The notes under the pieces: model-generated
What the model was told of the DNA's origin: nothing
The model's input: the letters and a program-made list of their open reading frames with translations, nothing else
Database searches by the model: none
Position numbers and translations under genes: made by a program
Shown here: positions 1,892-19,178 of the stretch, one piece after another
Numbering within the stretch: position 1 is the stretch's first letter
How the letters are laid out: each line of letters begins with the position of its first letter
Assembly: GCF_009914755.1 (NCBI RefSeq)
Contig: NC_060947.1
DNA: 64,000 bases
Strand: one strand, 5' to 3'
Source of the DNA: the human T2T-CHM13v2.0 reference genome, Homo sapiens

Positions 1892-1944
1892 GCTCACCAT
1901 GCTCTGTATTTGTTTGTAGTTTCCTGGGTGCGCTGCCACCATGG
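1892..1944 (+). promoter_or_regulatory. Candidate 3' splice site (branch point, pyrimidine tract, AG) and Kozak sequence upstream of CLDN34
   Basis: GCTCAC (1892-1897), then CTCTGTATTTGTTTGTAG ending at 1919, then 21 nt to the ATG in GCCACCATGG. Confidence 0.5.
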
Positions 1945-2585
1945 TCTGGTTCTGCAACAGTGCCGACTGCCAATTTTCAGTCTTCGCCCTTACCACCATA
2001 GGATGGATCCTCTCCTCTACGTCCACGGGCCTCGTGGAGTGGCGAATATGGTACATGAAAGACACCTCTCTCTACCCCCCTGGAATCGCCTGCGTGGGAA
2101 TATTTAGAGTCTGCATTTACCGGCGTCGCACCAACAGCACCACAACCAAATTTTGTTACCGATACAGCTACCAGGACACCTTTCTCCCTTTTGAAATTTC
2201 CATGGCTCAACGCTTCCTACTGACTGCCAGCATTTTCGGATTCTTCGGGAGAGCCTTTAACATGTTTGCACTTAGAAACATGTCCATGAGAATGTTTGAG
2301 GAGGACACCTACAATTCATTCGTTGTTTCAGGAATTCTCAACATTGCTGCTGGTGTCTTTAACTTAATTGCTGTGCTCCAGAACTATGATGCCGTCATAA
2401 ACTCACAGGGGATCACCTTCCTGCCATCTCTCCAAATGCCCTTCAAGCCAGATGTGCAGGAAGTTGGCACTGCCATTCAAGTGGCAGGGATAGGTGTCTT
2501 GCCGATGCTGTTAACTGGGATGTTTTCTCTGTTTTACAAATGTCCCCCGTACGGCCAAGTGCATCCTGGTATTTCAGAAATGTGA
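1941..2585 (+). CDS. CLDN34: Claudin-34, single coding exon, 214 aa, four-TM tight-junction protein
   Basis: Intact ORF with a perfect Kozak context (GCTGCCACCATGG) and four hydrophobic segments. The claudin ECL1 pattern W...G(L/I)(W/F)..C...C is present as EWRIW...CVGIFRVC...KFC. Position about 48 kb upstream of WWC3 fits the known CLDN34 locus. Confidence 0.93.
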
Positions 2586-16765: not shown

Positions 16766-17067
16766 GGCCGGGCGCGGTGGCTCACACCTGTAATCCCAGC
16801 ACTTTGGGAGGCCAAGGCGGGCAGATCATGAGGTCAGGAGATCGAGACCATCCTGGCTAACATGGTGAAACCCCGTCTCTACTAGAAATACAAAAAATAA
16901 GCTGGGCGTGGTGGCGGGCACCTGTAGTCCCAGCTACTCAGGAGGCTGAGGCAGGAGAATGGCAAGAACCCAGGAGGCAGAGCTTGCAGTGAGCCGAGAT
17001 TGCACCACCGCACTCCAGCCTGGGCAACAGAGCGAGACCCCATCTCAAAAAAAAAAAAAAAAAAAAG
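16766..17067 (+). mobile_element. AluY-like
   Basis: GAGATCGAGACCATCCTGGCTAAC diagnostic sequence, long A tail and TSD AAAAAAG(C/T)TTGAGGT. Confidence 0.85.
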
Positions 17068-17823: not shown

Positions 17824-18508
17824 TTAAACAAATTCTACTTTACCAAAAGTCACTTTTCTTGAAAAGTCCGGGTATGAAGGAAAAGGTGTTGGTTTTGCAG
17901 CCAGTGTGTTGGCATAAAGCTGTGTGGTGATCAAAAGAAGGCCTCCAGTGGAAAGGAGAAATCCACCCATCCAGCCGCTGGACATGGCATTGCCGCATCC
18001 CCCCGGGGCTTGTTGGGTGGGAACTCTGAGCTTTAGAACCTCCACACGGTAATATGGGCAACGTAGGACACGGACGCTCAAGTAGTGAGTCCGGCCAGAA
18101 AAACCAGAGCTCCCCCAGCAATGTTGACACTTCTCTCCCAAGAACTTCCTCCTCGGCCCCAGCATCTCAGCCACATCAGTCCCAGGATGACCGCCACAAG
18201 CCCGAGAGAACCCACAGCCCCGGCCACGCACGTGAGGACACGAGCCACCTGGAGTTTGGCAGCCAGGTTCTTTGGGCTGGCACACACTGGCACCTGTGTC
18301 TCGAGTCACACATGCTTCCCAAAGGCCCAGCATGTACTTCTCACTCTCGAGTAAACCCGAGGAGAAAGTCGGCCACTGAGGCATGCACACACAGGCCACT
18401 GAGGCATGCACTTGGCAGGCCACTGAGGCATGCCAGGGAACAGACGCGGCCAGCCACAGAGGCCAAGAGCCCCACATTTTGAATCAGCCAGATCGCCCTG
18501 CTTTTCAT
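17824..18508 (-). pseudogene. Intronless claudin pseudogene, CLDN22/24/25-like
   Basis: Joining frames gives MKSRAIWLIQNVGLLASVAGRVCSLA/CMPQWPTFSSGLLESEKYMLGLWEACVTRDTGASVCQ/NLAAKLQVARVLTCVAGAVGSLGLVAVILGLMWLRCWGRGGSSWERSVNIAGGALVFLAGLTT*ASVSYVAHITVWRF*SSEFPPNKPR/GNAMSSGWMGGFLLSTGGLLL...KVEFV*. This has the W-GLW-C-C signature, four TMs and a terminal Val. Stops are at 18078-18080 and 18033-18035. Confidence 0.88.
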
Positions 18509-19178
18509 CCTGCTCTCCAGGCCCAAGTTATTCTGGGGAAACTGTCTCTCGGTCACAACAGGACTGGCTCGTTAGATTGACATCTTGACGGATTCGCCGC
18601 AGTTCGTGCCAGCTGGTCTGCAACCATTAGTTCAGTCCTTTGTCAACCAACCAGAATGCAGCTGCTTATTAAATCGGGTTACTTGGTAACTGGGCTGCTA
18701 TTGTTCACCCTTAACTAACGCAGATGAATACCTACCATCAAAATAGGCCCAATAGAAAACCTGCTGCCAATACAGAGCCAGGTGGGAGAACCAGCAGATT
18801 GAGACAGGTATGCAGGCTTGGGAGAATTCTTGCTGGTTATAAAAGGCATGCATTTTAGCAATTTTATTTCCAAAAGGTAAACAGTTTGGGATACGGAGTT
18901 ATTAGACATTAGAGTCATCTATCACGGTTTGTTTTTTTTTTTCCTTTTCTTTTTTTCTTTGAGACAGAGTCTCGCTCTGTCACCCAGGCTGGATTGCAGT
19001 GGTGCCATCTCGGCTCACTGCAATCTCTGCCTCCTGGGTTCAAGCAACTCTCCCTGCCTCAGCCTCCCGAATAGCTTGGATTACAGGCACACACCACCAC
19101 ACCCGGCTATTTTTTGTATTTTTAATAGAGATTGGGTTCAGCCATGTTGGCCAGGCTGGTCTTGAACTTCTGACCTCA

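What the first reader, a model, noticed from the sequence alone, without database searches (positions are those of the whole stretch)
17824..18508. Hidden full-length dead claudin gene (CLDN22/24/25-like), a candidate lost tight-junction gene
Seen in the sequence: fragments from different minus-strand frames join into a complete claudin. TM1 is LIQNVGLLASVAGRVCSLA and ECL1 is MPQW..SGLLESEKYMLGLWEACVTRDTGASVC. These are followed by LQVARVL-TM2, TM3 IAGGALVFLAGLTT*, ECL2 ASVSYVAHITVWRF*..PR, TM4 GNAMSSGWMGGFLLSTGGLLL and a C-terminal -EFV. Lesions are TGA at 18078, TAA at 18033, a frameshift in the G-run near 18000, a frameshifting deletion near 18270 and a repeat-induced frameshift at about 18370-18435. 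From family knowledge, the motifs VS(W/Y)VAH.TV..FW and PRWEFG.A...GW..G..LL.GG.LL are typical of CLDN22/24/25, not of neighbouring CLDN34. Inference: this is an ancient in-situ gene (unitary pseudogene) rather than a CLDN34 duplicate, and it may be intact in other vertebrates.
Basis: partly seen in the sequence, partly recalled or inferred. Interest (0 to 1): 0.85.

Follow-up and report, generated by a model that had tools for sequence, protein, structure and literature searches.

The report
Dead claudin gene beside human WWC3
Between CLDN34 and WWC3 on the human X chromosome lies the complete but broken remains of a tight-junction (claudin) gene that is still intact in hyena, camel and desman, so humans have lost a claudin type that has no working copy left in our genome.

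Summary
Window 18508-17824 (minus strand) holds a colinear, intronless claudin coding sequence running from a start ATG to a stop at the conserved position. It carries five disabling lesions:
- a 37-nt tandem-repeat insertion
- a net 11-nt deletion
- a TGA stop
- a TAA stop
- a 1-nt deletion

Undoing the length changes gives 660 nt, which is 219 codons plus the stop and matches the hyena protein exactly.

Read through with X at the breaks, the sequence is 65.5% identical to 'putative claudin-24 [Hyaena hyaena]' and 59-63% identical to the camel, desman and an unnamed relative. It is only 30-34% identical to the human chr4 (CLDN22/24) and chr11 (CLDN25) genes, and 15% to the neighbouring CLDN34.

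In a tree it sits inside a eutherian clade (100/100). That clade belongs to a separate subfamily, sister to CLDN22/24/25.

The human genome has no closer copy and no parent at the DNA level. The relic has no poly(A) tail.

Synteny in other species, the date of the loss and prior annotation in GENCODE could not be checked.

Interest is moderate. It is a new member of a known kind.

The parts
18425..18508 (-). Start ATG (18508-18506), N-terminus and first transmembrane segment, read in frame C. Aligns with residues 1-28 of the hyena protein.
   Evidence: tblastn with the hyena protein gives 64% identity over 28 aa. The TM label comes from alignment with human paralogs and is an inference.
18388..18424 (-). 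Lesion 1: 37 extra bases made of tandem copies of the unit that encodes C-M-P-Q-W. It shifts the frame by +1.
   Evidence: Tandem Repeats Finder array at 18371-18433, period 23, 2.7 copies. With three of the four guides (hyena, camel, lgn257) the aligner writes one extra base at 18424 plus 12 extra codons. With the fourth guide (P0006) it writes the same frame change as a 1-nt codon at 18424.
18268..18387 (-). First extracellular loop, read in frame B. It carries W, 15 residues, GLW, then two cysteines.
   Evidence: The loop is 3 residues shorter than in the other classic claudins, a feature shared with the chr4 and chr11 genes.
18267..18276 (-). Lesion 2: net 11-nt deletion against the hyena, camel and lgn257 guides (about 4 codons lost, frame shifted) between the second ECL1 cysteine and TM2.
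   Evidence: The exact base differs by guide (18267, 18273-18270, 18276 and 18270 for the four guides). The net length change is -11 nt with the hyena, camel and lgn257 guides.
18003..18266 (-). TM2, intracellular loop, TM3 and second extracellular loop, read in frame A. Contains lesions 3 and 4.
   Evidence: PDB claudin-19 E=1.2e-6. 37.5% identity to the chr4 ORFs over 88 aa.
18078..18080 (-). Lesion 3: TGA stop where the intact relatives shown have L.
18033..18035 (-). Lesion 4: TAA stop where the intact relatives shown have W (the FW motif of ECL2).
17995..17996 (-). Lesion 5: 1-nt deletion inside the P-R-W-E-Y/F-G motif, next to the G run. The W of that motif is also replaced by G.
   Evidence: a 2-nt codon at this place with all four guides.
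17827..17994 (-). TM4 and cytoplasmic tail ending E-F-V, read in frame B.
   Evidence: The tail aligns residue for residue with the hyena, camel, desman and lgn257 tails.
17824..17826 (-). TAA stop codon at the same aligned position as the end of the intact relatives.

Best explanation
This is a unitary (unprocessed, single-copy) pseudogene of an intronless classic-type claudin.

The ancestral gene encoded a 219-residue four-pass tight-junction protein. It had the W-GLW-C-C first loop and a C-terminal hydrophobic x-F/Y-V end like the PDZ-binding ends of classic claudins. It belongs to a claudin subfamily that is sister to CLDN22/24/25 and has no working member in the human genome.

In the human lineage the gene was inactivated. 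It now carries three frameshifts (+37 nt repeat insertion, net -11 nt, -1 nt) and two stop codons, so no claudin can be made from it.

Shown here: the anatomy, the lesions, the family placement, the existence of intact relatives, and the absence of any closer human copy.

Inferred: that it lies at the ancestral place, that the intact relatives are positional orthologs, that the protein formed tight-junction strands, and when it died.
For: (1) The sequence is colinear and full length. A frameshift-aware alignment to the hyena protein covers residues 1-219 within 685 contiguous bases, with 139 of 214 aligned codons identical. 685 - 37 + 11 + 1 = 660 nt, which is 219 codons plus the stop and equals the hyena length.

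(2) Identity of the read-through (X at breaks):
- hyena 135/206
- lgn257 129/205
- camel 128/206
- desman 121/206
- metaclust217 111/205
- chr11 gene 69/205
- chr4 genes 62/203 and 60/203
- CLDN34 28/185

(3) In the tree of 33 rows the relic lies inside a 7-row eutherian clade (100/100). That clade lies inside a 13-row subfamily (98/96), sister to the 7-row CLDN22/24/25 clade (98/93). The joint node has 99/100.

(4) All 8 relatives scanned pass the PF00822 cut-off of 26.7 bits: the five intact eutherian forms at 43-54 bits, and P0017, P0014 and P0011 at 54.4, 57.9 and 81.6 bits. The hyena protein hits PDB claudin-4 at E=4.5e-22.

(5) There is no functional human counterpart. The hyena protein finds only the chr4 genes (45%), the chr11 gene (43%) and the split relic (48-49%) as its top hits. 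A DNA search with the relic finds only itself.

(6) There are no retrocopy marks. No minus-strand poly(A) lies within 2.2 kb downstream.

(7) Neighbourhood. The best paralog of WWC3 exon 1 lies at chr4:186.443 Mb (+), about 220 kb from the chr4 claudin pair at 186.663 and 186.665 Mb. So a WWC gene and a claudin of this group are neighbours on both chromosomes.

(8) At 81 columns invariant in the five intact eutherian relatives, the human reading differs at 14. This is more than the left-out hyena, camel, desman or lgn257 differ in 4 of 5 leave-one-out comparisons.
Against: - Pfam finds nothing in the separate human fragments, and the genome-wide PF00822 scan misses the locus.
- The intact relatives are automatic gene predictions with 'putative' names. 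None has experimental support that I saw. The squirrel form is truncated.
- Their genomic positions are unknown, so orthology rests on sequence alone.
- The relic lies 5' of WWC3 in divergent orientation, whereas the chr4 claudins lie about 220 kb downstream of the WWC2 exon-1 match on the opposite strand. The arrangement is similar but not identical.
- In 1 of 5 leave-one-out comparisons an intact relative (metaclust217) departs from invariant columns more than the human relic does: 24 against 18 of 105.
- The AU test group was named after the tree was seen.
Confidence: 0.88

Rival explanations
1. It is a decayed duplicate or retrocopy of an existing human claudin gene (CLDN22, CLDN24, CLDN25 or the neighbouring CLDN34), not the remains of a separate gene.
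For: All these genes are intronless, so a retrocopy and a DNA duplicate look alike. The chr4 and chr11 genes are the nearest human paralogs.
Against: - Identity to those genes is 30-34%, and 15% to CLDN34, against 54-65% to the five full-length intact relatives from other species.
- The relic sits inside their clade with 100/100 support, and placement in the CLDN22/24/25 clade is rejected at p=5e-9.
- No DNA-level match exists elsewhere in the genome.
- There is no poly(A) tail.
- The C-terminal tail aligns with the hyena-type tails but not with those of the chr4 or chr11 genes.
Confidence: 0.02
2. The intact proteins in hyena, camel and desman are paralogs that lie elsewhere in those genomes, and the human relic is a dead extra copy of that subfamily. 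On this reading it is not the positional ortholog, and the loss would not be 'unitary' in the strict sense.
For: No genomic context could be seen for any relative. In bats CLDN34 has amplified on the Y chromosome (PMC13715679, passages read), so claudins in this region can move and multiply.
Against: - The human genome has only this one copy of the subfamily.
- The N-terminal extensions of the camel and desman predictions (tblastn HSPs to 18526) and the upstream extension of the unnamed 257-aa record (HSP to 18623, 38% identity overall) still align with the translated human 5' flank. This fits one shared locus.
Confidence: 0.05
3. The locus is not dead. It is used as a non-coding RNA, or the 217-codon ATG ORF that happens to stay open in frame B (18477-17827) is translated into a new protein.
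For: Frame B is open from 18483 to 17827 (219 codons; 217 from its first ATG) and contains the true ECL1 and TM4-tail parts.
Against: - The middle ~90 residues of that ORF are out-of-frame text with no hydrophobic segments.
- Pfam finds nothing in it.
- The hub's gene table lists no transcript and no RefSeq functional element here.
- I had no expression data.
Confidence: 0.04
4. It is a chance resemblance in G+C-rich DNA.
For: No Pfam hit on the fragments.
Against: - tblastn E=8.6e-39 with the hyena protein.
- 93.3 bits against 11.0 for the best of 2000 shuffles.
- Four colinear pieces in the right order, with start and stop at the right places.
Confidence: 0.01

Closest known systems
Predicted proteins 'putative claudin-24 [Hyaena hyaena]' (P0029, 219 aa), 'Claudin-25' of Camelus bactrianus (P0030, 225 aa) and 'putative claudin-25 [Galemys pyrenaicus]' (P0031, 251 aa)
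   Same: - Same length once the human indels are undone.
- 59-65% identity over the whole protein, including the cytoplasmic tail and the x-F-V end.
- Same eutherian clade at 100/100.
   Different: They are open reading frames that pass the Pfam claudin cut-off. The human copy has five disabling lesions. Their names were given automatically by similarity. In my tree they are not CLDN24 or CLDN25 orthologs.
Human CLDN22 and CLDN24 (4q35.1) and CLDN25 (11q23.2). The cytobands come from the table in PMC11414526. Assigning those names to my chr4 and chr11 loci rests on position and recall.
   Same: - Nearest human paralogs.
- Intronless.
- Shared 3-residue-shorter first loop (W, 15 residues, GLW).
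- Shared VS-W/Y-VAH and PRWE-F/Y-G motifs.
- The chr4 pair also lies beside a WWC gene.
   Different: - Only 30-34% identical.
- A different, sister clade.
- Their tails do not align with the relic's tail and do not end in x-F/Y-V.
CLDN34, the neighbouring gene at window 1941-2585
   Same: It carries the claudin/PMP22 fold family at weak Pfam level (20.6 bits, below the cut-off). It lies about 15 kb away on the same chromosome arm.
   Different: 15% identity and no significant BLASTP match. It is on the opposite strand and lacks the classic loop motifs.
Human unitary pseudogenes as a class, for example GULOP (recalled, not examined here)
   Same: A single-copy relic of a gene that is intact in other mammals, with no functional human counterpart.
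   Different: Here the lost gene belongs to a large family with many remaining paralogs, so a visible phenotypic consequence is less likely.

Membership tests
Claudin / PMP22 superfamily (Pfam PF00822) | Significant match to the curated family HMM | tested here: not met
   No hit for any human fragment, and the locus is absent from the 48 genome-wide PF00822 matches. The joined reading could not be sent to Pfam. All 8 relatives scanned do pass at 43-82 bits.
Claudin / PMP22 superfamily (Pfam PF00822) | Significant similarity to bona fide claudins over the whole length | tested here: met
   - PDB claudin-19 E=1.2e-6 with frame A alone.
- My own HMM of 14 human claudins gives 93.3 bits, and my HMM of 11 without the chr4 and chr11 genes gives 68.2 bits. 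The best of 2000 shuffles scored 11.0 and 9.3 bits.
Claudin / PMP22 superfamily (Pfam PF00822) | First extracellular loop signature: W, then G-L-W, then two cysteines | tested here: met
   Read directly in frame B at 18387-18277. That this pattern is the claudin signature is recalled.
Claudin / PMP22 superfamily (Pfam PF00822) | Four transmembrane segments in the order TM1-ECL1-TM2-loop-TM3-ECL2-TM4-tail | tested here: met
   Four colinear pieces align with residues 1-219 of the hyena protein and with the human paralogs. No topology predictor was run.
Unitary pseudogene | Disabling lesions in the coding sequence | tested here: met
   Three frameshifts and two stops.
Unitary pseudogene | No functional copy of the same gene in the same genome | tested here: met
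   Whole-genome protein and DNA searches. The next best loci are 43-45% identical to the hyena protein.
Unitary pseudogene | Intact ortholog in other species | tested here: met
   Full-length open forms P0029, P0030, P0031, P0032 and P0006. Orthology is by sequence and tree only.
Unitary pseudogene | Conserved position (synteny) with the intact orthologs | not testable with these tools
   No vertebrate genome other than the window's own is held. The only indirect support is the pairing of a WWC gene with a claudin on chr4 and on X.
Processed pseudogene (retrocopy) | Parent gene with high nucleotide identity, poly(A) tail, target-site duplications | tested here: not met
   No second DNA match in the genome. 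There is no T run on the plus strand (which would be a minus-strand poly(A)) between 15579 and 17823. Target-site duplications were not searched.
CLDN22/24/25 clade | Groups inside that clade in a phylogeny | tested here: not met
   The relic falls in the sister clade. Forcing it inside costs 80.7 log-likelihood units, AU p=5e-9. The group was named after the tree was seen.
CLDN34 family | Sequence similarity to CLDN34 | tested here: not met
   BLASTP E=0.35. 28/185 identical.

The most novel reading that the evidence does not exclude
The relic marks an unnamed claudin gene lineage. It would be a third sister to CLDN22/24 (beside WWC2) and CLDN25, dating from early vertebrate genome duplication and once sitting beside WWC3.

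The lineage has escaped the claudin nomenclature for two reasons. It is dead in human, and the WWC3 neighbourhood is missing in mouse. Where it survives, it is labelled 'putative claudin-24/25' by automatic annotation.

It also appears to have decayed independently in several mammalian lineages. The unnamed records P0023 and P0033, and P0007, are broken at places different from the human lesions.

If this is right, carnivores, camelids and moles have a tight-junction component that the two main model species lack.
Probability: 0.45. Interest if true: 0.6.

Novelty: new member of a known kind. Interest (0 to 1): 0.5.

Why it matters
The human claudin list (24 genes in the review PMC11414526, abstract start seen in the listing, table passage read) is used as the reference set for tight-junction biology. 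This relic shows that the ancestral eutherian set held at least one more classic-type claudin. That claudin is alive in some mammals, dead in humans, and misnamed by automatic annotation.

The finding gives three things:
- a clean case for dating a gene loss in the primate line
- a candidate for species differences in barrier properties
- a correction for orthology tables that now assign the hyena, camel and desman genes to CLDN24 or CLDN25

It does not by itself answer a long-standing question. A loss from a large redundant family may have had little effect.

Tried and rejected
- **Pfam on single frames**: nothing, apart from weak unrelated rows (DUF7684 E=0.19, SUR7 E=0.34).
- **The search for homologous proteins with the human frame-A reading**, longer lengths and near lengths: no hit in either. 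This tool needs shared 5-residue words. The same database did hold relatives when queried with an intact form.
- **Other claudin relics in the window**: tblastn of 16 query records (15 distinct proteins) over all 64 kb found only CLDN34 and this relic.
- **Literature**: searches (3 papers; 5; 1; 42 papers, 12 listed; 5; 4) showed no title or abstract start about a claudin pseudogene near WWC3. I read passages of PMC13715679 (CLDN34 amplified on a bat Y chromosome, not relevant to this relic) and of PMC11414526 (gene table). The WWC searches gave only the statement, in an abstract start, that WWC3 is absent from mice (bioRxiv 10.64898/2026.08.21.746351). The claudin phylogeny papers of Baltzegar 2013 and Mineta 2011 were not seen and are recalled only.
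- **ESM Atlas**: gave only generic 'Claudin' and 'putative claudin-25' clusters from Chordata, with no finer taxonomy.
- **Dating the loss and dN/dS**: not possible, because no ortholog DNA is held.
- **Structure prediction**: not run, because the sequence evidence was sufficient.

Full report
**Observation**

The minus strand of window 18508-17824 (T2T chrX:9,565,824-9,566,508) reads as a complete claudin split over three frames.

- Frame C starts with ATG at 18508 and gives the N-terminus and first hydrophobic segment.
- Frame B from 18387 gives C-M-P-Q-W, then fifteen residues, G-L-W and two cysteines.
- Frame A from 18266 to 18003 gives L-Q-V-A-R-V-L, two hydrophobic segments and V-S-Y-V-A-H. 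It is interrupted by TGA at 18080-18078 and TAA at 18035-18033.
- Frame B from 17994 gives the fourth hydrophobic segment and a tail ending E-F-V, followed by TAA at 17826-17824.

Tandem Repeats Finder reports a 23-bp unit in 2.7 copies at 18371-18433.

**Is it more than chance?**

- Pfam does not see the separate fragments, and a genome-wide scan with PF00822 (48 matches) does not list the locus.
- Other tests are decisive.
  - Frame A alone, with X at the two stops, hits PDB claudin-19 at E=1.2e-6, followed by claudin-4, -18, -9 and -3. Ten of the 16 rows are claudins.
  - Human claudin ORFs give colinear tblastn matches in three frames.
  - The read-through with X at each break scores 93.3 bits against an HMM I built from 14 human intronless claudins. 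It scores 68.2 bits against one built from the 11 that exclude the chr4 and chr11 genes. The best of 2000 shuffles scored 11.0 and 9.3 bits.
- The Pfam miss has a simple cause. Each fragment is short, and the model is weak for this branch: the intact chr11 gene itself scores only 55.8 bits.

**Which claudin?**

The window's own assembly can be searched. Frame A finds itself first. After that it finds two intact ORFs at chr4:186.663 and 186.665 Mb (36% identity), one at chr11:113.79 Mb (31%), and then other classic claudin loci. By position these are CLDN22, CLDN24 and CLDN25. The cytobands come from the table in PMC11414526, and assigning the names to these loci is partly recall.

The neighbouring CLDN34 shows no significant similarity (E=0.35).

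The relic shares a first loop three residues shorter than in the other classic claudins with the chr4 and chr11 genes. In a first 16-row tree it was sister to them, with weak support of 80/68.

**Intact relatives**

An exhaustive HMMER search with 94 residues of frame A found 24 proteins at E<=0.001. Four of these were far closer than any human gene, at 49-57% identity and E down to 1e-21. Using the intact 217-residue hit as a query returned named records:

- 'putative claudin-24 [Hyaena hyaena]', 219 aa
- a Camelus bactrianus 'Claudin-25', 225 aa
- 'putative claudin-25 [Galemys pyrenaicus]', 251 aa
- 'putative claudin-24' of Ictidomys tridecemlineatus, 182 aa and truncated
- two unnamed records

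All eight relatives that I scanned pass the Pfam claudin cut-off. The hyena protein hits PDB claudin-4 at E=4.5e-22.

The human read-through has these identities:

| Compared with | Identical / aligned |
|---|---|
| hyena | 135/206 (65.5%) |
| unnamed 257-aa record | 129/205 |
| camel | 128/206 |
| desman | 121/206 |
| chr11 gene | 69/205 |
| chr4 genes | 62/203 and 60/203 |
| CLDN34 | 28/185 |

The intact eutherian forms are 56-77% identical to each other, so the human relic is hardly more diverged than they are from one another. The cytoplasmic tail, which does not align with CLDN22/24/25, aligns residue for residue with the hyena-type tails.

**Tree**

With 33 rows:
- The relic lies inside a 7-row eutherian clade (100/100).
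- That clade lies in a 13-row subfamily (98/96). Of its deeper members, the four I fetched (P0010, P0011, P0013, P0014, P0017) mostly end in E-Y-V: P0011, P0013, P0014 and P0017 do, P0010 does not, and P0025 was not fetched.
- That subfamily is sister to a 7-row clade holding the chr4 and chr11 genes (98/93).
- The two together have 99/100 support.

Forcing the relic into the CLDN22/24/25 clade costs 80.7 log-likelihood units, AU p=5e-9. I named that group after seeing the tree.

The relic's end branch is 0.33. For comparison: hyena 0.09, camel 0.16, desman 0.28, metaclust217 0.44. I do not know which taxa the deeper unnamed members come from. The Atlas says only Chordata.

**Lesions**

A frameshift-aware alignment against four intact guides gives the same picture each time:

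1. 37 extra bases at 18424-18388, made of repeat copies. The aligner writes them as an insertion with three of the four guides.
2. A net 11-base loss within 18276-18267, as measured against three of the four guides.
3. TGA where the relatives have L.
4. TAA where they have the W of the F-W motif.
5. One base lost at 17996-17995 inside P-R-W-E-Y-G, whose W is also replaced by G.

The start and stop codons are at the conserved positions. 685 - 37 + 11 + 1 = 660 nt, which is 219 codons plus the stop and equals the hyena length.

At 81 columns invariant in five intact eutherian forms, the human reading differs at 14. In leave-one-out comparisons it departs more than hyena, camel, desman and the 257-aa record do, but less than the 217-aa record. 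So decay is visible but moderate. I cannot date it.

**Not a copy of something else**

- A DNA search of the whole genome with 921 bases around the relic finds only itself.
- The hyena protein finds nothing in the human genome closer than the chr4 genes (45%), the chr11 gene (43%) and the split relic.
- There is no minus-strand poly(A) within 2.2 kb downstream.
- The whole window holds no further claudin-like stretch besides CLDN34.
- The N-terminal extensions of the camel and desman predictions, and the upstream extension of the unnamed 257-aa record, still align with the translated human 5' flank up to 18526 and 18623 respectively. This fits one shared locus.

**Neighbourhood**

The best paralog of WWC3 exon 1 lies at chr4:186,442,908 (+), with 54% identity. 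That is about 220 kb upstream of the chr4 claudin pair. The next best is on chr5. So a WWC gene and a claudin of this group are neighbours on chr4 and on X, though the order and orientation differ.

From recall, not tested here: 4q34-35, Xp22, 5q34 and 11q share other paralog sets such as the TENM genes. That would fit an origin of the three claudin lineages in the early vertebrate genome duplications.

**Mechanism**

- Shown: an intronless 219-codon classic-type claudin gene was inactivated. It cannot now yield a claudin.
- Inferred: the protein formed tight-junction strands and bound PDZ scaffolds through its x-F/Y-V end, as classic claudins do. The gene sits at its ancestral place. The loss happened somewhere on the primate line.
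- No function is known for the intact relatives. The review table lists CLDN22 and CLDN24 as 'NR' and CLDN25 as a cation channel.

**Prior knowledge**

- The hub's RefSeq table has no gene between CLDN34 and WWC3.
- Six full-text searches showed nothing on a claudin pseudogene here. I saw only listings and the passages named above.
- GENCODE, pseudogene catalogues and the claudin phylogeny papers could not be checked, so prior annotation remains possible.

**Verdict**

It is a new member of a known kind (a unitary pseudogene) and of moderate interest.

Noticed in passing
Unnamed protein P0008 (104 aa), aligned to window 18269-17985 (-): It aligns with the human frame A straight through the site of the 1-nt deletion (P-R-G...A-M-P in both). 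It has no stop at the two human stop positions and no 11-nt deletion. Its source may share the human -1 frameshift and the W-to-G change, which would make that lesion the oldest. Identity is 50/95.
   Followed up: partly
Unnamed proteins P0023 and P0033, and P0007, aligned to window 18515-17827 (-): These open frames are partly out-of-frame readings of the same gene. P0023 and P0033 scramble ECL1 to TM2 between two compensating shifts. P0007 has other shifts. All are at places different from the human lesions, so the gene seems to have decayed independently in other lineages.
   Followed up: partly
Window 18477-17827 (-), frame B: A 217-codon ATG ORF (219 codons from stop to stop, starting at 18483) stays open across the whole relic. 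Only its ECL1 and TM4-tail parts are the true frame. The middle is out-of-frame text. It is probably a chance effect of G+C-rich DNA.
   Followed up: partly
Window 18509-18623 (-): The 5' flank of the relic, when translated, still aligns with the N-terminal extensions of the camel and desman predictions and with the upstream extension of the unnamed 257-aa ORF. The 5' leader of the old gene is therefore recognisable.
   Followed up: no
G000:C1:154729292-154729708 (-), locus L024: A claudin-like stretch on chr1 with one TGA inside (PF00822 E=1.4e-19; 30% identity to the hyena protein). It may be another claudin pseudogene and is outside this window.
   Followed up: no
G000:C23:40161285-40162475 (-), locus L041: Two PMP22/claudin-family matches on chrX at 40.16 Mb, one with a TGA inside. 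The identity was not examined.
   Followed up: no
Window 17047-17066 (+) and 16876-17041: An A20 run on the plus strand, preceded by text that translates like an Alu element. It lies about 760 bases downstream of the relic's stop and is unrelated to the relic.
   Followed up: no
Window 1941-2585 (+), CLDN34: The annotated neighbour scores below Pfam's own cut-off for both claudin models (20.6 and 18.6 bits) and is absent from the genome-wide PF00822 matches. The curated HMMs are therefore weak for divergent claudins.
   Followed up: partly
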